The notes: generated by a model from the letters alone, not told the origin. DNA of 64,000 bases from an uncultured virus (IMG/VR IMGVR_UViG_3300031519_000014) (IMGVR_UViG_3300031519_000014); one strand, 5' to 3'; shown: positions 87 through 26,601, numbered from the stretch's first letter. Numbers and translations are program-made.

Positions 87-569
87 TTAAAAATCACCGG
101 GAGCGACTTGACAGCAGAGGATACCTTCCGATCTCCACATGTCTACAACTTTATTACGGTCATCAAACACGCAAAGTAAAGAAGCCCACTTTTTCCTCTT
201 AACCCATTGGTTATTTCTATATTCAAACTCCTCTTTGAGCCAATCTCTTTTGAGGCTGTCGTCAGGTTCGTAGTTCGAAACCGGTCTCATGCGTAATATA
301 TCATAAGATATTCCATTATCTTTTAACCAAGACTCAGTAACCTCCTTGGTTTCCTCTCCACGACCAGAAAAGATGGCCATTTTGTAGCCAGCCCTCTGAA
401 GAGCGATGTAGAGCGCAATGCTGTCGCTCATCGGAACATCTAACTTAATATTATCCGGATTAAAGAATACTTTCCAGTCCAGTTTGCCGTTTTCTTTGGC
501 AGCGAGCGATCTTCTTGCCTCTATGTCGGCCAAGGTACCGTCTAAATCAAATATTATCCACTTTTCCAT
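87..569 (-). CDS. HAD-family phosphatase, polynucleotide kinase 3'-phosphatase (PseT C-terminal-like) domain
   Basis: HAD motifs FDLDGT, FSGR and FDDR; C-terminal QVAPGDF typical of phage PNK-phosphatases. Confidence 0.85.
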   Translation of the reverse strand: MEKWIIFDLDGTLADIEARRSLAAKENGKLDWKVFFNPDNIKLDVPMSDSIALYIALQRAGYKMAIFSGRGEETKEVTESWLKDNGISYDILRMRPVSNYEPDDSLKRDWLKEEFEYRNNQWVKRKKWASLLCVFDDRNKVVDMWRSEGILCCQVAPGDF

Positions 570-4896: not shown

Positions 4897-5430
4897 TTAT
4901 ACTTTAACTATGCTTATGGTTCCTTCTTTGTGAAACTTTTTGTTATAATATCCTTTTACTTCTATTACGTATGGATAGCTACCAACCGGAGAAAGTTTTC
5001 CACCATATGTCCCATCCCATTGATTGGATTGCTTATTCGATTCGAATACTAATTGACCCCATCGATTATAAATTACCAGATGATATTTTTTTACTCCACG
5101 GCCTAAACCACCAAACGTGTCATTTAAACCATCTCCATTCGGCGTGAAAGCATTTGGTACGTATATGTACATTGACGGCTTAACATCAATGATATTCGAA
5201 AAGCTTATTTCGCTGGTAACTTTGTTTAATGCAGTAACTCGATATTTAATACGAGGATCGTCAATCCCAGGTATGGGATCTCCTGTCTCTAATAGTTGTG
5301 TATTGTTTTCGTTGATATCCATTAACAAATCCCAAGCTGATGGTTTATACCAAACATCATAGATGTTTATTGCTAATAAGCAAAGTAATATTACAAGAAT
5401 CGATTCTCGTTTAGTGCTAAACTTAATCAT
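4897..5430 (-). CDS. membrane-anchored protein with gliding-motility-associated / T9SS type-B C-terminal domain (CHU_C-like)
   Basis: YVPNAFTPNGDGLNDTF, IYNRWGQLVFES, WDGT and GSYPYVI hallmarks; N-terminal hydrophobic segment. Confidence 0.85.
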   Translation of the reverse strand: MIKFSTKRESILVILLCLLAINIYDVWYKPSAWDLLMDINENNTQLLETGDPIPGIDDPRIKYRVTALNKVTSEISFSNIIDVKPSMYIYVPNAFTPNGDGLNDTFGGLGRGVKKYHLVIYNRWGQLVFESNKQSNQWDGTYGGKLSPVGSYPYVIEVKGYYNKKFHKEGTISIVKV

Positions 5431-18492: not shown

Positions 18493-18963
18493 TTATCTTA
18501 CTCGATCTAGTATTATCAACTGTGATTTATGTATCTTAGGATACGCATCTTCGATTTTTACAAAACCTGCCCAATCTATTTCCTCTAGTTGTAATTTCTC
18601 TTTATCTATTTTATGACCTATCATTCCTATGTCAGAAGGATCGTCTATTCTCATAATGAAGTATATCATTTGGGAATCAATCGAGCCATCTTTTTTGAAA
18701 CGAGGTACAGTGTGTGGCTCTGAATCTAGCTTCGACGGGTCCACCTCTATTCCGGTTTCCTCGAATACTTCGCGAATTGCTGCGTCTAACGGATCTTCTC
18801 CTACTTTGATTCCTCCTTTTGGAATTCCAAGTGCACTATGTTGCCAACTTGCGTTAGTTGGGTGAACTAGTAAAAGCTTACCGTCCCATACAAATGCGAT
18901 ACCTGCTACATTTTTGGTATCCTCTGATTCATTTATAAATTTATTGAAATTCTTGACCTTCAT
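18493..18963 (-). CDS. Nudix hydrolase
   Basis: Nudix box PKGGIKVGEDPLDAAIREVFEETGI. Confidence 0.92.
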   Translation of the reverse strand: MKVKNFNKFINESEDTKNVAGIAFVWDGKLLLVHPTNASWQHSALGIPKGGIKVGEDPLDAAIREVFEETGIEVDPSKLDSEPHTVPRFKKDGSIDSQMIYFIMRIDDPSDIGMIGHKIDKEKLQLEEIDWAGFVKIEDAYPKIHKSQLIILDRVR

Positions 18964-19135
18964 CCTTTTTTCTGTTATATACTGCTTTATTTAATTCTTC
19001 TCTTTTCTTAACTGACTTCTTCTTAAATCGTTTTCGTTCTCGAAGTTCTTGATGTACTCCTATATCCTTAAGTTTTTTACGGTACGATTTAAGAGCATAT
19101 TCTATTTTATTTCCTTTAACCTTTACTATAATCAT
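18941..19135 (-). CDS. rpsU: 30S ribosomal protein bS21
   Basis: IEYALKSYRKK...G...ELRERKRFKKKSVKKR...KAVY pattern. Confidence 0.88.
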   Translation of the reverse strand: MIIVKVKGNKIEYALKSYRKKLKDIGVHQELRERKRFKKKSVKKREELNKAVYNRKKDEGQEFQ

Positions 19136-22813: not shown

Positions 22814-24784
22814 TTATCTAATAAATTTACTGAAGGGTGTTATATGCTTAAGTGATATACTTTCAGATACTCTGCTATTGGTCTTATCCATTCCCATTCC
22901 TTTTTGTAATCGGTTTTCCATATTCCTGATAATCTCGATCTTTTCTTTACCATATGCCATATTATAGAATTCCTCTACTTCTGGTGGAACTGAATCTTTT
23001 CTGTTATTCCAAGCGTGGGCAACTACTCCAATATCTGGTAATCCAAAGTGAGTTGCATTTTTCTGTAAAGTATCATTAAGTACTTTACCTGATTTCTTAT
23101 CCCTATCACCCAAGATCGGAGCAACATAAGATGCATCAGGATTATCCTTTAAATATTTATTAATTGCATGTTGTACAGTCTGTTGTATCGACTTTAATCC
23201 TATAGCTTTAACCTCTCCATCTGATAATAATTTATCTCCAAACGAATCTGCAAACTTTATAATTTGCTTTCCAATAAATAAAGGCATATATCCCTTTATT
23301 CTAAATACACTTGTACCTATTCGATGGGCTACTCCATATGCCTTACTTGCATGTTCAGTGTTAAGTGCAATTCCCTTATAAAAGTCAGCTAGGTTAAGTT
23401 TATTTTGTTTGACGAAATTGCCAACTTCTTTCTTACCCACCGTACCACCATATGCGTCTTGTAAGAATTTAGCCATATTATCTCCGTACCTAGCCGTGAC
23501 GTTTCCTCCTGACTTTAATAGCACAGCAGGCATCGATGACATAACTACTCCCTTTGAATTAAGAACTCTAAGTTCGTCTCCATGAGTAACTATCTTTCTA
23601 CCTCTTTTTCCAGCGGCGGCAAAGAAATCATCCATATTTTTAATATGTCCCATGTCAATTAATTTAGGTACATCAGCTGCGAATTTAGCTGATCCCTTTT
23701 CAAAGGTTTCAAACATATTTCCAATTGAATCAAAGAATTTCTTTAATGGTTTCCCAATGAGCGGCATCCATCCTGTAACTTTTGCTAAAAATCCTTTAAA
23801 GAACTTAGCTAGTAAGTTACCAACAAGTGGAACTGCTTTGCTAGCCGATTTTGCTATTTTGTCAAGTCCGCTAATTGTTTCAGGTCCAGCTTTAGCAATA
23901 GTGTTAACTGCCTCTGGTGTTATCTTTGCTGTTCCTAATGTATATTTAGATCCACGCTTAACAACGGGTGAAGCATAGTGTGTAGATATTTCCAAAATAC
24001 CTCTACCTGCTTTAGTTCCTTTAAATACAGCCTTCATGATATCTCCACCAAATGGGATAGCCGCAGCAATAAATGATACAAGTGCTAGTAAGAATTTATC
24101 TCCTCCTCCTTTTCCATCAGATCTTTCAGATGCTCCTCTAATTAAGTATATAACTCCGTTAAGAATATCTGCAATAAGTCCAACTGGGACTCCAGTGACG
24201 ACGAATATACCATCTCCTACTAATCCAATAATATCTAATATCAAGTGTATAATTCCTATAGGTTCTCCACCTTCAGTTAATGAGAGTGCTAGATTTTTAA
24301 GAATTCCTAGAATTCCGCCGGCATTTTCTTTTGCTTTAGGAACATCGGTTGTTGATTCTATATTCTTTAACACATTTGCGTCTAACAATGAGGCTTCTTT
24401 CTTTGGGTCAGTTATAATATCAGCCGATGACGGATCTACCTTCTCAATTGATTCATCCTCGTTTAATCTAGGAGATTTAAGTTCGTCTACAATTGATTTA
24501 TAAGACGTAGTGATTTCATCCATCTGGATTGATGAGAACATATCAGATACTTGTTCAAGTAATATATTCTTTCCTTGTAATAAATTTCTATTAAAGTTAT
24601 CAACTCCTCTAAATCCTTGTTCTAACAGTAATTTAATTTCTAACTCAAATCTAACATTTTCTGGAATAAGTGACTCTATTCTGCTTAATATAGCAGACTC
24701 ATTCATTATTAGATCATCGTAGTTAAGAGTTCTAGTTATTCCAAAGGATTGGCTATTATCTCCATACGGTTTTATGTGGCGCAT
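22814..24784 (-). CDS. putative ejection/membrane-insertion protein with pre-toxin-TG-like hairpin
   Basis: HLILDIIGLV...ADILNGVIYLIRG...AAAIPFGGD; MRHIKPY N-terminus and LKHITPFSKF C-terminus; late box at 24801. Confidence 0.6.
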   Translation of the reverse strand: MRHIKPYGDNSQSFGITRTLNYDDLIMNESAILSRIESLIPENVRFELEIKLLLEQGFRGVDNFNRNLLQGKNILLEQVSDMFSSIQMDEITTSYKSIVDELKSPRLNEDESIEKVDPSSADIITDPKKEASLLDANVLKNIESTTDVPKAKENAGGILGILKNLALSLTEGGEPIGIIHLILDIIGLVGDGIFVVTGVPVGLIADILNGVIYLIRGASERSDGKGGGDKFLLALVSFIAAAIPFGGDIMKAVFKGTKAGRGILEISTHYASPVVKRGSKYTLGTAKITPEAVNTIAKAGPETISGLDKIAKSASKAVPLVGNLLAKFFKGFLAKVTGWMPLIGKPLKKFFDSIGNMFETFEKGSAKFAADVPKLIDMGHIKNMDDFFAAAGKRGRKIVTHGDELRVLNSKGVVMSSMPAVLLKSGGNVTARYGDNMAKFLQDAYGGTVGKKEVGNFVKQNKLNLADFYKGIALNTEHASKAYGVAHRIGTSVFRIKGYMPLFIGKQIIKFADSFGDKLLSDGEVKAIGLKSIQQTVQHAINKYLKDNPDASYVAPILGDRDKKSGKVLNDTLQKNATHFGLPDIGVVAHAWNNRKDSVPPEVEEFYNMAYGKEKIEIIRNMENRLQKGMGMDKTNSRVSESISLKHITPFSKFIR

Positions 24785-24875
24785 GTGCTATAGTTTTTTA
24801 TTATTTATTCAACTTTATAAACAAAAAAGACCTACTGATCAAGGAAGGTCTTTTAAATGTGAGTTGCTTTATAGT

Positions 24876-25005
24876 TGGTTCATATTACGGATTCGAACCG
24901 CTTTGCTCTATATTCTGTTCGCCAATGTTTAGCGTTACGTATTATTAAGAGTAATCCTTGAGTTGGTACCAACTCAAGGACCGTGTATCCCATCCACCAA
25001 TATGA
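24876..25005 (-). ncRNA. non-canonical tRNA-like RNA (130 nt, encoded CCA)
   Basis: Acceptor TCATATT/AATATGA+A+CCA; D-like arm GTG-GATGGGATA-CAC; T arm GCGG-TTCGAAT-CCGT; no standard anticodon loop. Confidence 0.65.
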
Positions 25006-25075
25006 ATAAAGGACTTTCACCTTTCCTGATTAGCTGTAACCCACTAATCTTATTTGATCATTCAATCAAACCGTG

Positions 25076-25430
25076 TGGAGATGGAGGGATTCGAACCCTC
25101 GTCCATTAAACATCGACAATAGATTTTATTACAGCATAGGATAATCGTTTTCTAACAATTCCAAAATAGAGAGTTCCCTTATTACTGTTCGGTTTACTCA
25201 TAACTAATCTTCAGGTTTTCAATTTCACGCGTGAGAAATAGAAATACTAACTAAACTGTTACTTCCTTTTACATCTAATCAACCTACAAGTATAATCAGT
25301 TACATGATGTGCACTACTTACCTATTAGGCAGCCATTGCGTACTCAGCGTTGTCGGCTAAGATTGATGTAGGTCATCACCCGTTGCTGAATCTAAAGCTT
25401 CTCGAATAATGTCAAAGCCATGTCATCCCC
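25076..25430 (-). ncRNA. ssrA: tmRNA
   Basis: 5' GGGGATG pairs with 3' CATCTCC-A (G3:U70 Ala identity); T arm GAGGG-TTCGAAT-CCCTC; tag frame 25357-25325 ADNAEYAMAA followed by TAA TAG. Confidence 0.93.
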
Positions 25431-25475
25431 ATGTTTTAAAGAACTGTAAAGTAACGATATACTATTTAGTTACTG

Positions 25476-25568
25476 TTACAAAATATACATTACCAATAAT
25501 GCAACTATAGCTCCTAATATAAAAAAAGCAATTTGCTCTAAAAACTGTATTCTATTAAATTTAAACAT
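25476..25568 (-). CDS. possible 30-aa TM peptide
   Basis: Hand translation MFKFNRIQFLEQIAFFILGAIVALLVMYIL. Confidence 0.35.
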   Translation of the reverse strand: MFKFNRIQFLEQIAFFILGAIVALLVMYIL

Positions 25569-25581
25569 TTTTTTAATATTT

Positions 25582-26601
25582 TTACACCAACTCAAGATTA
25601 AAAATTCGTTGCAATTCCCTTCTCTGTCTATTAATTAAGTCAGGAGAGTATGCTTCAATTAAACGTTTAACATCGTTTTGATTTGATACGTATAATAAAT
25701 CCTTAAGAACTGGATCCTTAATTAACTTCTTCTCGGGATCATATTCTATCTGAATAGCAGCAAGACAATTAGACGCAAGGGTTTCATAGAACCTGTATGT
25801 TGTTACGTTGTCTAGGTGTTCTTCGTCTCCGGTAATAAATGAGACTTTTACTTTATCCAATTGCGCCATTAGGTCTTCGTGCTTTAACTTCTTCATGAAT
25901 TCTCCCGGTACCTTATCAGACTTATATCCAATTTTTAGATTGTTTGTATCTGATGGGAAATACTTTCTTAATTGATTTTCTCTAAAGGATCCTCTTTTAT
26001 CTCCAAAATATACGAGATCGAATTCTTTTTCAAGTGTTTCGTCGGCAGGTGCAAATATGTCAAATTGTTCCGAGTTAGTAAATCGTTCCTTAAAGATATA
26101 AGTGAACCAATCTACCTGTTGATGGTTTTTAGGTTCGTATCCTAGAAATTGCTCTATATTCTTTCCAGCAAATAAGTACGTCGCATTCTCAATAATATTA
26201 TCCCAAAGTTCAACAGATTCATTACATATATCAAATCGTTCAGATATAGTCTTTGCGTAATTCATTGGTGGAATTCGTGGATCATTAATAAGGAAATAAA
26301 TCTTTCCTTTAAACTTTGCAAGGTTATTACAAATAGTTTCACAATGTTCTCCCATAACTCCTCCGAAGAAATTAGGCGTAGATAATTGAACGATAACTGC
26401 TCCGTATTCTGAGAAATCATTGTCGGTATAGTTATGATAGAAATCAAGATCCTTCATGTTTCTATTCTTATAACCTACACAATCAACTTGAGCTCCTTTT
26501 TCTTCCATCATTTTCTTGATGAACATTGCTTCTAGTCCTCTATGGTTCTTATCGTTATACGTAAGATTTGCAAATACTGATGTTAATGCTATTTTCTTCA
26601 T
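25582..26601 (-). CDS. DNA beta-glucosyltransferase (T4 BGT-like)
   Basis: NFFGG, IYFLINDPRIP, DLVYFGDKRGSFRE and GDEEHLDNVTTYRFYETLAS align in order with T4 BGT NFFGG, IYYLFTDIRLP, DVIYGGSFRSGQRE and GDKNYNDNFITLRVWETMAS. Confidence 0.85.
   Translation of the reverse strand: MKKIALTSVFANLTYNDKNHRGLEAMFIKKMMEEKGAQVDCVGYKNRNMKDLDFYHNYTDNDFSEYGAVIVQLSTPNFFGGVMGEHCETICNNLAKFKGKIYFLINDPRIPPMNYAKTISERFDICNESVELWDNIIENATYLFAGKNIEQFLGYEPKNHQQVDWFTYIFKERFTNSEQFDIFAPADETLEKEFDLVYFGDKRGSFRENQLRKYFPSDTNNLKIGYKSDKVPGEFMKKLKHEDLMAQLDKVKVSFITGDEEHLDNVTTYRFYETLASNCLAAIQIEYDPEKKLIKDPVLKDLLYVSNQNDVKRLIEAYSPDLINRQRRELQRIFNLELV

What the first reader, a model, noticed from the sequence alone, without database searches (positions are those of the whole stretch)
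24876..25005. CCA-ended tRNA-like RNA whose anticodon arm is replaced by a 26-nt perfect palindrome
Seen (minus strand): 7-bp acceptor stem, discriminator A, encoded CCA, a GG-containing D-like loop and a canonical TTCGAAT T loop. At the anticodon position lies TCCTTGAGTTGGTACCAACTCAAGGA (24955-24980, perfectly self-complementary), followed by an approximately 50-nt extra arm (CTCT/AGAG with inner CGCTAA/TTGGCG). It lies 70 nt downstream of tmRNA, after a spacer with three hairpins including a T-loop-like AAAGG-TGAAAGT-CCTTT. Inference: a non-decoding tRNA mimic, such as a decoy for anticodon nucleases or synthetases, a processing signal, or a tmRNA partner.
Basis: partly seen in the sequence, partly recalled or inferred. 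Interest (0 to 1): 0.78.

Follow-up and report, generated by a model that had tools for sequence, protein, structure and literature searches.

The report
Anticodon-less tRNA-shaped RNA behind phage tmRNA
A large marine phage carries, just behind its own tmRNA gene, a 128-base sequence that keeps the frame of a tRNA but has a long closed hairpin where the anticodon should be, and a second copy found elsewhere keeps the end helix paired through matching changes, so it is probably a real non-decoding tRNA look-alike of unknown job.

Summary
The described sequence is real. On the minus strand, 25006-24878 has a 7-8 bp end helix, U8, a 3-bp D arm with a GG loop, a 12-13 bp hairpin containing the perfect 26-nt palindrome 24980-24955, a 46-nt extra arm and a GGTTCGAATCC T arm. 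It lies 67 nt behind a phage tmRNA and about 25 nt before a terminator.

It is not a decoder. ARAGORN (default) and Rfam do not call it, and it has no anticodon loop.

It belongs to a roughly 745-nt cassette (small ORF, tmRNA, three hairpins, this element). Two other assemblies carry the cassette; all 13 other related phage loci lack it.

The key result comes from one metagenome run. A more abundant, unrelated contig holds the same 116-nt core (2 substitutions, 1 extra base) in different flanks. Those flanks again form the end helix: 3 pairs changed on both sides, 1 changed C-G to U-G, none broken.

The "CCA end" is weak. ACCA reads ACAA in the second copy, and it is out of register in the canonical 7/5 frame.

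Best reading (about 0.5): a selected, tRNA-shaped, non-decoding stable RNA, cut out of the tmRNA transcript by tRNA-processing enzymes. The closest analogue is T4 species 1 RNA (rnaC), whose function is also unknown. Only two sequence variants exist and there is no RNA evidence.

The parts
24878..25006 (-). tRNA-shaped element, canonical 7/5 register (T1 = 25006, C73 = 24878).
   Evidence: Sequence read. Frame descriptor hit at 25006-24879. Fold. CM R1 self-score 173.8 bits.
24879..25006 (-). End (acceptor-like) helix: 5' strand 25006-25000 (or to 24999) pairs with 3' strand 24885 (or 24886) to 24879. This gives 7 bp, or 8 bp if T24999-A24886 pairs (8/4 form).
   Evidence: Pair probabilities 0.67-0.999. 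In the second copy from run X5, 3 pairs changed on both sides, 1 changed on one side to U-G, 0 broken (read by hand from the loose ends).
24983..24997 (-). D-like arm: GTG stem, loop GATGGGATA, CAC. Preceded by T8 (24999) and G9 (24998).
   Evidence: Sequence. Aligned by R1 to the D arm of Flavobacteriaceae tRNA-Cys. Only 0.02 probability in the energy-only ensemble.
24954..24981 (-). Long hairpin in the anticodon-arm position. It contains the perfect 26-nt palindrome 24980-24955, has a GUAC loop, and is closed by G24981-U24954.
   Evidence: pair probabilities 0.945-1.0. In the second copy the closing G-U becomes G-C and the 5' arm gains a 1-nt bulge.
24906..24951 (-). 46-nt extra (variable-arm-like) arm: outer CTCT/AGAG, inner hairpin CGCTAA-ACA-TTGGCG (24934-24920).
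   Evidence: outer pairs 0.81-0.89, inner pairs 0.56-0.999.
24886..24902 (-). T arm: AGCGG-TTCGAAT-CCGTA. Four pairs plus an A-A mismatch in the 7/5 register, or a 4-bp stem in the 8/4 form.
   Evidence: Sequence. AGCGGTTCGAATCCG is identical to the tRNA-Cys of 5 Flavobacteriaceae genomes. Only 0.02 probability in the energy-only ensemble.
25008..25071 (-). Spacer with three predicted hairpins: 25071-25052, 25049-25028 and 25024-25008.
   Evidence: MFE fold of 25080-24800.
25073..25430 (-). Phage tmRNA, tag DNAEYAMAA. The 3' CCA is not fully encoded.
   Evidence: ARAGORN. Rfam RF00023, 75.8 bits, E 1.2e-27.
25476..25568 (-). 30-codon hydrophobic small ORF at the head of the cassette.
   Evidence: Read. 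In L004 it is interrupted by a further 527-bp insertion.
24822..24854 (-). Terminator-like hairpin plus T run. It sits at the same position as the terminator of cassette-less relatives.
   Evidence: Alignment A1 and fold. The simple terminator scan did not call it, because its loop is longer than 8 nt.
24855..25597 (-). Approximately 745-nt cassette that is absent from relatives: small ORF, tmRNA, spacer and tRNA-shaped element.
   Evidence: A contig of a relative in run X5 joins 24828 to 25591.
25582..26601 (-). Upstream gene, similar to T4 beta-glucosyltransferase. Used to fetch the related loci.
   Evidence: Pfam PF09198 E 1.8e-9. PHROG 7922 E 2.4e-18.

Best explanation
This is a real, selected, tRNA-derived RNA gene that cannot decode.

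Proposed mechanism:
- It is transcribed as the tail of the phage's tmRNA cassette, on the same strand and ending at the hairpin plus T run at 24854-24822.
- It keeps the acceptor/T-arm stack and the D-loop/T-loop elbow. Host tRNA-processing enzymes should therefore treat it as a tRNA precursor: RNase P would cut in front of T25006, and a 3' nuclease (with CCA addition if needed) would finish the end near C24878.
- That cleavage frees the tmRNA precursor upstream and leaves a stable RNA of about 128 nt.
- The product has a closed 12-13 bp hairpin in place of the anticodon arm and a 46-nt extra arm. It cannot read codons, but it could occupy proteins that recognise the upper half of a tRNA.

Shown: the sequence frame; the position in a cassette that relatives lack; identity across independent assemblies; and a second copy in other flanks with compensatory changes in the end helix.

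Inferred: transcription, the cleavage sites, stability, and any partner.
For: 1. The tRNA frame is complete apart from the anticodon loop. It has a 7-8 bp end helix, U8, a 3-bp D stem with A14 and GG, one base before the long hairpin, a T loop GGTTCGAATCC, and no spacer before the 3' strand. Such a frame occurred once in 150 simulated windows. The same descriptor recovers 21 of 29 ARAGORN tRNAs in control loci.

2. A second copy exists in another context. In run X5, a 1087-nt contig at depth 25 (about 5 for the phage) matches only 24885-25000, with 2 substitutions and 1 inserted base, and runs on unlike on both sides. Its flanks again pair: UCUAACUU/AAGUUGGA against UUCAUAUU/AAUAUGAA. Three pairs changed on both sides, one went from C-G to U-G, none broke. 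Its other substitution turns the hairpin's closing G-U into G-C. Six random flank positions would all pair with probability of about 0.003 (my arithmetic).

3. The fold is more stable than shuffles: -38.1 kcal/mol, z -4.2, 0 of 200 shuffles as good. The cloverleaf form is only 2-2.6 kcal/mol above the MFE.

4. A model of the element (R1) finds real tRNAs. tRNA-Cys was hit in 5 of 151 Flavobacteriaceae genomes at 29-34 bits, sharing the T arm and the D-arm layout.

5. The setting fits. The element is on the same strand as the tmRNA, 67 nt behind it and about 25 nt before the terminator. The window is a Bacteroidota-type large phage encoding S21, sigma factors and a PNKP phosphatase domain.

6. 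A precedent exists. T4 rnaC is 139 nt, lies beside tRNA genes, has a canonical T arm near its 3' end and long hairpins in the middle, and has no known function (PMC3014915 and PMC9697503, passages read).
Against: - Only two sequence variants are known: the window lineage, identical in 3 assemblies, and the X5 contig. The second is known only from a read-laying table and two 30-nt loose ends. I could not fetch it, so the covariation rests on one comparison read by hand.
- There are no changes in the D, T or extra arms, so those arms are untested.
- By energy alone, the D and T arms have about 0.02 probability. The MFE instead pairs UGGA (24996-24993) with UCCG of the T arm.
- Rfam gives no tRNA-clan hit for the element (24876-25006) at E up to 10; the clan hits in that scan all include the tmRNA's own 3' end. 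ARAGORN default gives nothing.
- A core that is 97% identical beside an end helix changed at 4 of 8 pairs is odd for slow divergence. It would also fit a mobile module.
- There is no RNA evidence for the element.
- No further homologues were found in IMG/VR, the JGI metagenome collection, GTDB genomes or related phage records.
Confidence: 0.5

Rival explanations
1. It is a small protein-less mobile DNA module. The 116-nt core (about 25000-24885) moves between genomes and lands in the centre of short palindromes. The 'acceptor helix' would then be a property of the target site, not a selected RNA stem.
For: The core is 97% identical in two contexts whose flanks are unalignable. In both, the flanks that abut the core are inverted repeats of each other (TTCATA|TATGAA and TCTAAC|GTTGGA). 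The region behind the glucosyltransferase gene is an insertion hotspot: there are different inserts in L010-L015, and an extra 527 bp in L004.
Against: There are no terminal inverted repeats, no direct target duplication and no transposase nearby. The two 'targets' share almost no sequence. The core itself carries the tRNA elbow nucleotides, and the helix continues into the core (T-A, T-A). The junction spacing is exactly that of a tRNA.
Confidence: 0.15
2. It is a decaying tRNA gene, a pseudogene that came along with the tmRNA. Its anticodon loop was destroyed, for example by palindrome-forming template switching, and the extra arm is junk insertion.
For: No detector calls it a tRNA. The T stem has an A-A mismatch in the 7/5 register. 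The acceptor stem is AT-rich, unlike the 29 regular tRNAs of the related phage G002. That phage's tRNA array also holds irregular and half tRNAs.
Against: A dead gene would not keep its end helix through 3 double changes, nor improve a G-U to G-C, in a second context. All elbow nucleotides are intact. The element is identical in 3 assemblies, while the adjacent tmRNA shows 4-5 differences between the window and L004 (a weak argument, p about 0.13 by my arithmetic).
Confidence: 0.12
3. It is a working tRNA with an intron. ARAGORN's relaxed call is tRNA-His(GTG) with a 50-nt intron.
For: With introns allowed and the threshold lowered to 90%, ARAGORN reports tRNA-His(gtg) at 25006-24877.
Against: ARAGORN reports nothing at default thresholds, with or without introns. 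The proposed intron sits at position 32/33, not 37/38. The proposed anticodon stem has two non-pairs. The 'intron' has no group I or II features in Rfam. From general knowledge, bacteria have no enzyme known to splice such short tRNA introns.
Confidence: 0.02
4. It is a chance look-alike in a structured AT-rich intergenic spacer.
For: The T-loop 9-mer GTTCRANYC is not rare: 5 in the window and 5.7 per simulated window. Across hundreds of thousands of scanned windows, a 1-in-150 frame will turn up by chance.
Against: Chance does not explain a second, near-identical copy elsewhere with a re-paired end helix, nor the fold z-score of -4.2.
Confidence: 0.03

Closest known systems
Bacteriophage T4 species 1 and 2 RNAs (rnaC 139 nt, rnaD 119 nt; AF158101 70908-71171)
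   Same: Both are phage-encoded, of similar size, and lie next to tRNA-type genes on the same strand. rnaC has a canonical T arm (CCGGG-UUCGAAU-CCCGG) just before its 3' end, a helix between its two ends, and long hairpins where the D and anticodon arms would be. Its function is still unknown (PMC3014915 and PMC9697503, passages read). Rfam has no family for it either.
   Different: There is no sequence or model similarity: R1 finds nothing in the T4 locus. rnaC has no D arm, and its end helix is short and interrupted. The element here follows a tmRNA rather than a tRNA array, and it has a perfect palindrome.
Class II tRNAs and (8/4) allo-tRNAs (Mukai et al. 2017, PMC5389517)
   Same: It has a long extra arm after the anticodon arm. 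A possible 8-bp acceptor with a 4-bp T stem gives the 12-bp stack that paper describes for some phage tRNA-Ser and tRNA-His (abstract and passages read).
   Different: Those tRNAs have a normal 7-nt anticodon loop and decode. Here the loop is replaced by 7 more base pairs and a tetraloop, and the extra arm (46 nt) is about twice as long as any I know (from recall).
tRNA-like domain of tmRNA, including permuted two-piece genes
   Same: It has an acceptor helix plus T arm without an anticodon, and it lies beside a tmRNA gene.
   Different: There is no G3-U70 pair, no tag reading frame and no pseudoknots. The only similarity to the adjacent tmRNA is the 11-nt T loop. ARAGORN's tmRNA search finds nothing even at 80% threshold.
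tRNA-like processing modules such as mascRNA at the MALAT1 3' end and the tRNA-miRNA units of murine gammaherpesvirus 68 (recalled, not from a call)
   Same: In these, a tRNA-shaped fold is placed beside another RNA so that RNase P or RNase Z cuts the transcript there. This is the mechanism I propose here.
   Different: These are eukaryotic systems. The only mascRNA-menRNA match in the scan (RF01684, 14 bits, E 5.2) lies on the tmRNA's own 3' end at 25077-25120, not on the element. Processing here has not been shown.
Flavobacteriaceae tRNA-Cys(GCA)
   Same: It is the best-matching real tRNA to the model of the element. It has an identical AGCGGTTCGAATCCG, the same 3-bp D stem with a 9-nt loop, and a similar CAAC trailer.
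   Different: The acceptor stem differs at 4 of 7 pairs, the discriminator is C rather than U, and the anticodon loop is missing. tRNA-Cys was hit in only 5 of 151 family genomes, and in 0 of 151 genomes in each of the order and phylum samples.

Membership tests
Canonical tRNA (Rfam RF00005 / ARAGORN) | 7-bp acceptor stem closing the molecule | tested here: met
   25006-25000 pairs with 24885-24879, 7 of 7 pairs.
Canonical tRNA (Rfam RF00005 / ARAGORN) | Anticodon stem of 5 bp with a 7-nt loop and U33 | tested here: not met
   The arm is a 12-13 bp hairpin with a 4-nt GUAC loop.
Canonical tRNA (Rfam RF00005 / ARAGORN) | T arm with a G-TTCRANY-C loop, and a D loop with GG | tested here: met
   GGTTCGAATCC and GATGGGATA are present. 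The T stem has 4 pairs plus an A-A mismatch. The energy model alone gives these arms 0.02 probability.
Canonical tRNA (Rfam RF00005 / ARAGORN) | Recognised by the standard detectors | tested here: not met
   ARAGORN default finds nothing. Rfam gives no tRNA-clan hit for the element (24876-25006) at E up to 10; the clan matches in that scan (tmRNA, tmRNA_permuted, mascRNA-menRNA) all include the tmRNA's own 3' end.
Intron-containing tRNA | Intron at the canonical site (37/38) leaving an intact anticodon arm, with a known splicing mechanism | tested here: not met
   The only call is a relaxed ARAGORN hit with the intron at 32/33 and a mismatched stem. There are no intron families in Rfam.
tmRNA or tmRNA acceptor piece | G3-U70 in the acceptor stem, a tag reading frame, pseudoknots | tested here: not met
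   Position 3-70 is C-G (U-G in the second copy). ARAGORN -m at 80% finds nothing. The Rfam tmRNA_permuted hit of 15.7 bits spans the tmRNA's own 3' end and the spacer and stops at 24981, so it overlaps only the first ~25 nt of the element.
Displaced 3' end of a tRNA or tmRNA gene left by an integrative element (att scar) | A direct repeat of the 3' part of the neighbouring gene | tested here: not met
   Only the 11-nt T loop is shared with the tmRNA. The element has its own matching 5' strand.
T4 rnaC-type phage tRNA-like stable RNA (a loose class, defined by description rather than by a model) | Phage gene beside tRNA-type genes, T arm near the 3' end, ends paired, no anticodon loop | tested here: met
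T4 rnaC-type phage tRNA-like stable RNA (a loose class, defined by description rather than by a model) | Sequence or profile homology to rnaC or rnaD | tested here: not met
   R1 finds no match in the T4 locus at E up to 10.
T4 rnaC-type phage tRNA-like stable RNA (a loose class, defined by description rather than by a model) | Accumulates as a discrete stable RNA processed with tRNAs | not testable with these tools
   The runs laid were contigs only, and none covered the element.
(8/4) allo-tRNA (PMC5389517) | 8-bp acceptor plus 4-bp T stem, and a long variable arm | tested here: inconclusive
   T24999-A24886 can pair, giving 8/4 with 12 standard pairs. The 7/5 register with U8 is equally readable.
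(8/4) allo-tRNA (PMC5389517) | A functional anticodon loop | tested here: not met
YrlA / bacterial Y RNA (from recall) | tRNA-like module whose termini lie in a Ro-binding stem | tested here: not met
   No Rfam hit. Here the termini lie in the acceptor-like helix.

The most novel reading that the evidence does not exclude
The element is one member of a family of phage tRNA mimics with a fixed body (elbow, long hairpin, giant extra arm) and an exchangeable acceptor stem. The body binds a host or phage protein that recognises the upper half of tRNAs. The acceptor stem is re-tuned between genomes. Such an RNA could soak up or misdirect a tRNA-directed host factor, such as a defence nuclease, a processing enzyme or a synthetase. 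This phage also carries its own tmRNA, S21 and an RNA-repair phosphatase domain.
Probability: 0.12. Interest if true: 0.8.

Novelty: new variant of a known kind. Interest (0 to 1): 0.5.

Why it matters
Phage tRNA-like stable RNAs have been known since T4's species 1 and 2 RNAs, and still have no assigned function. This element is an unrelated example from a marine Bacteroidota-type large phage. It has an unusually complete tRNA frame, no anticodon, and a first hint of selection on its end helix, and it sits in a tmRNA cassette that is present or absent among close relatives. If such RNAs prove to be processing modules or protein decoys, they would add a non-coding layer to how large phages handle host translation and tRNA-directed defence. 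The presence/absence polymorphism offers a natural comparison for testing this.

Tried and rejected
**Homologue searches**
- Viral contigs: the exact 3' part, an internal 30-mer and two D-loop/T-loop gap patterns each found only the same two contigs.
- JGI metagenome contigs found one contig, the G001 record.
- GTDB genome contigs with the gap pattern found 0.
- GenBank phages, by blastn with 651 nt, gave no match.
- Model R1 found nothing real in 49 window and viral loci, in 5 related phage records, in 49 Bacteroidota ssrA loci (one 10.8-bit noise hit), in 5 genomes, or in the order and phylum samples (0 of 151 each).

**False lead: TonB-dependent receptor**
- R1's only full-length bacterial hit (G017, 23.7 bits) lies inside the plug region of a TonB-dependent-receptor ORF (read by eye).
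- tblastn back to the window gave E 0.2 with stop codons in the alignment. I rejected it as chance.

**False lead: 11-nt repeat**
- The 11-nt CTTGAGTTGGT of the palindrome arm recurs at the stop codon of the upstream gene.
- Equally long or longer matches occur elsewhere in the window (E 2.5; a 14-mer at E 0.04). I rejected this as chance.
- The open frame that such a junction would create has no counterpart in the 14 relatives' C-termini.

**Host ssrA plus tRNA capture**
- 0 of 49 Bacteroidota ssrA loci has a same-strand tRNA within 700 nt downstream.

**tmRNA partner**
- The duplex energy with the tmRNA is no better than for shuffles.

**Downstream regions of other phage tmRNAs**
- Of 51 viral loci with this tmRNA 3' end, only the candidate's own contig has the element.

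**RNA evidence**
- Contigs of RNA runs X15 and X17 covered the generic tmRNA 3' end.
- X17 also covered 25115-25285 of the tmRNA body, and X15 covered 25512-25700.
- None covered the element. This says nothing about expression.

**Other**
- The two 30-nt loose ends of the X5 contig were not found in viral contigs.
- Literature searches found no description of such an element behind a phage tmRNA in the library searched.
- Earlier notes of this scan: nothing by place or by sequence.

Full report
**What is there**

On the minus strand, the window reads as follows.
- A tmRNA at 25430-25073. ARAGORN gives the tag DNAEYAMAA, and Rfam scores it at 75.8 bits.
- A 67-nt spacer that folds into three hairpins.
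- The candidate, read from 25006 to 24878, consists of:
  - an end helix TTCATAT/ATATGAA, which becomes 8 bp if T24999-A24886 also pairs;
  - T8 and G9;
  - a D-like arm, GTG-GATGGGATA-CAC;
  - one base, G26;
  - a hairpin of 12-13 bp with a GUAC loop, which contains the perfect 26-nt palindrome 24980-24955;
  - TA;
  - a 46-nt arm, CTCT...AGAG, with an inner hairpin CGCTAA-ACA-TTGGCG;
  - CAA;
  - a T arm, AGCGG-TTCGAAT-CCGTA, immediately followed by the 3' strand of the end helix;
  - then C, then CAAC.
- A hairpin with a T run follows at 24854-24822.

The palindrome is unique in the window, and none of 100 shuffles gave a match.

**Is it more than chance, or an artefact?**

- The RNA fold of 25005-24873 is -38.1 kcal/mol (z -4.2). 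None of 200 shuffles folded as well.
- I wrote a descriptor for the tRNA frame. It requires a T arm with at least 4 of 5 pairs, 7 of 7 acceptor pairs directly behind it, U8, and a D arm with A and GG, and it allows 40-189 nt in between.
  - It hit once in the window, at 25006-24879.
  - It hit once in 150 simulated windows.
  - It recovered 21 of 29 ARAGORN tRNAs in control loci.
- The palindrome is identical in two other viral assemblies (L003, L004). It is also identical in a contig of a run from another study (X6 record 18, 24700-25033, no differences). An assembly artefact is therefore excluded.

Points against the cloverleaf:
- By nearest-neighbour energy alone, the D and T arms have only about 0.02 probability.
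- The MFE pairs UGGA with UCCG instead.
- The cloverleaf lies 2.0-2.6 kcal/mol above the MFE. Tertiary elbow contacts are not in that model.

**Detectors**

- ARAGORN at default settings, with or without introns, finds nothing.
- Only at a 90% threshold does it offer tRNA-His(gtg), with a 50-nt intron at position 32/33 and a mismatched anticodon stem. I reject that call.
- Rfam gives no match for the element at gathering thresholds. At E up to 10 it gives no tRNA-clan hit for the element itself; the clan matches in that scan all include the tmRNA's own 3' end.
- Rfam also has no family for T4 rnaC or rnaD. Its silence is therefore expected for this kind of RNA.

**Context**

The window is a virus record. 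Its genes point to a large phage of a Bacteroidota host:
- a gene similar to T4 beta-glucosyltransferase;
- a T4-type terminase;
- two sigma-70-like proteins;
- ribosomal protein S21;
- a PNKP phosphatase domain;
- a CHU_C type IX secretion domain.

The exact 30-nt 3' end of its tmRNA occurs in 49 genome loci, all labelled as Bacteroidota lineages.

I fetched 15 related loci through the glucosyltransferase gene.
- L003 and L004 carry the same cassette.
- L005-L009 (86-90% protein identity) go from the stop codon, through about 40 nt, straight into the same terminator and a conserved downstream promoter-like stretch.
- L010-L017 have other inserts or none.

So about 745 nt are an indel among close relatives: a 30-codon hydrophobic ORF, the tmRNA, the spacer and the element. 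A contig of a relative (about 88% identical) in run X5 joins 24828 to 25591, which is the cassette-less form.

**The second copy**

I laid contigs of four runs on 24700-25700. In DNA run X5, one 1087-nt contig has these properties:
- Its depth is 25, against about 5 for the phage pieces.
- It matches only 24885-25000.
- It has two substitutions and one extra base.
- It runs on unlike for 177 nt on one side and 793 nt on the other.

On the RNA strand its flanks read ...CAUCUAAC|UUGG... and ...CCGUAA|GUUGGACAAU.... The end helix therefore becomes UCUAACUU/AAGUUGGA, where the window has UUCAUAUU/AAUAUGAA.

| Helix position | Window | X5 copy | Change |
|---|---|---|---|
| 2 | U-A | C-G | both sides |
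| 3 | C-G | U-G | one side |
| 5 | U-A | A-U | both sides |
| 6 | A-U | C-G | both sides |

- Positions 1, 4, 7 and 8 are unchanged. No pair is broken.
- Six unrelated flank positions would all pair with a probability of about 0.003 (my arithmetic, G-U allowed).
- The two flanks are not reverse complements of each other beyond these six bases, so the contig is not an inverted-repeat artefact.
- The substitution at 24954 turns the closing G-U of the long hairpin into G-C.
- The extra base makes a one-base bulge in the 5' arm. The hairpin is thus kept, but the perfect palindrome is not.
- After the helix the window reads C-CAAC and the second copy reads C-AAUA.

I could not fetch this contig. 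Its two 30-nt ends are not in IMG/VR. The core is in no other contig of the collections I could scan.

**Which tRNA does it resemble?**

I built a covariance model from the three identical copies with my structure (R1).
- It found six hits in 151 Flavobacteriaceae genomes.
- Five are tRNA-Cys(GCA), at 29-34 bits. They share AGCGGTTCGAATCCG, the 3-bp D stem with a 9-nt loop, and a CAAC trailer.
- The sixth is a chance hit inside a TonB-dependent-receptor ORF.
- Order and phylum samples gave 0 of 151 each.

The element is thus tRNA-derived and closest to a host-family tRNA. Descent from tRNA-Cys is only a weak inference.

Register:
- The 7/5 reading gives canonical junction spacing and U8, but an A-A mismatch in the T stem.
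- The 8/4 reading gives twelve standard pairs. Mukai et al. describe this form for some phage tRNAs (PMC5389517, abstract and passages).
- In both readings the discriminator is C, and CCA is not encoded in register.

**What it is not**

- It is not a tmRNA piece. There is no G3-U70 and no tag, and nothing is shared with the adjacent tmRNA but the T loop.
- It is not a displaced att copy of a neighbouring gene's 3' end.
- It is not a captured host ssrA-tRNA pair. None of 49 bacterial ssrA loci has a same-strand tRNA within 700 nt downstream.
- The 11-nt repeat of the palindrome arm at the upstream gene's stop codon is at chance level.
- Pairing with the tmRNA is no better than for shuffles.

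**How it most likely works**

Shown:
- a complete upper-half tRNA frame without an anticodon loop;
- the same strand as the tmRNA, and a position between the tmRNA and the terminator;
- a cassette that is present or absent among relatives;
- a second copy with a re-paired end helix.

Inferred:
- co-transcription with the tmRNA;
- RNase P cleavage before T25006 and 3' trimming near C24878;
- release of the tmRNA precursor;
- accumulation of a stable RNA of about 128 nt that cannot decode but could bind proteins that read the acceptor/T-arm stack and elbow.

I put about 0.5 on this reading.

The odd pattern is a 97% identical core beside an end helix changed at four of eight pairs. It keeps two other readings alive. 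One is a small mobile module that lands in palindromes (0.15). The other is the bolder reading of a tRNA mimic with a fixed body and a re-tuned acceptor stem (0.12). I give a decaying pseudogene 0.12, and an intron-containing tRNA or pure chance a few per cent together.

**Closest known**

I fetched them.
- rnaC has a canonical T arm just before its 3' end, paired ends and long internal hairpins. Its fold is -50.2 kcal/mol, z -4.6.
- There is no model similarity to the element.
- Two papers state that the roles of RNAC and RNAD are unknown (PMC3014915 and PMC9697503, passages read).

I therefore file the element as a new variant of that loosely defined kind, not as a homologue.

I found no description of an anticodon-less tRNA-shaped RNA behind a phage tmRNA in three full-text searches. 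Comparisons with mascRNA, the MHV68 tRNA-miRNA units, YrlA and integrase site preferences are from recall.

**Limits**

- There are only two sequence variants, and one is known only from a table.
- There is no covariation inside the D, T or extra arms.
- There are no RNA ends.

Noticed in passing
L004:5110-5640 (the G001 record); corresponds to window 25491/25490: One of the two other cassette-bearing assemblies has a further 527-bp insertion. It lies inside the 30-codon hydrophobic small ORF that heads the tmRNA cassette (alignment A1).
   Followed up: no
L074:2300-2600 (tRNA array of related phage record G002): Between tRNA-Met and tRNA-Ile lie half-tRNA pieces. A T arm ending in CTCCCCCA sits upstream of a 5' half that begins GGGGGAG. 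A second 5' half is followed by about 70 nt and another T arm. Two pieces share an AGGATTAG...TTCCTTC segment. These could be permuted, split or decayed tRNAs.
   Followed up: partly
L074:1310-1393 and L074:666-1105: An irregular tRNA-like sequence with an AT-rich acceptor stem. ARAGORN calls it only at an 85% threshold, as 'tRNA-Stop(tta)' with a 13-nt insert. It follows an ORF that reads like an HNH endonuclease by eye.
   Followed up: partly
L035 (reverse strand) 1089-1204: A 116-nt tRNA frame with an insert of about 40 nt, in the tRNA array of another large phage contig. ARAGORN does not call it.
   Followed up: no
L024, about 75-140 nt downstream of its tmRNA: Another phage tmRNA is followed by a tRNA-like sequence with a CAT-containing loop and an ACCA end. 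ARAGORN does not call it.
   Followed up: no
L018-L068: Of the 51 viral loci that share this tmRNA 3' end, ARAGORN reports 15 as permuted (two-piece) tmRNA genes.
   Followed up: no
window 87-569 (-), 18941-19135 (-), 4897-5430 (-): The phage encodes a PNKP phosphatase domain (RNA-repair type), ribosomal protein S21, and a protein with a CHU_C type IX secretion signal domain.
   Followed up: no
window 25115-25285: A 171-nt contig from a metatranscriptome run (X17 record 8) matches the body of this phage tmRNA with 2 differences. This shows presence in an RNA library, not proof of transcription.
   Followed up: no
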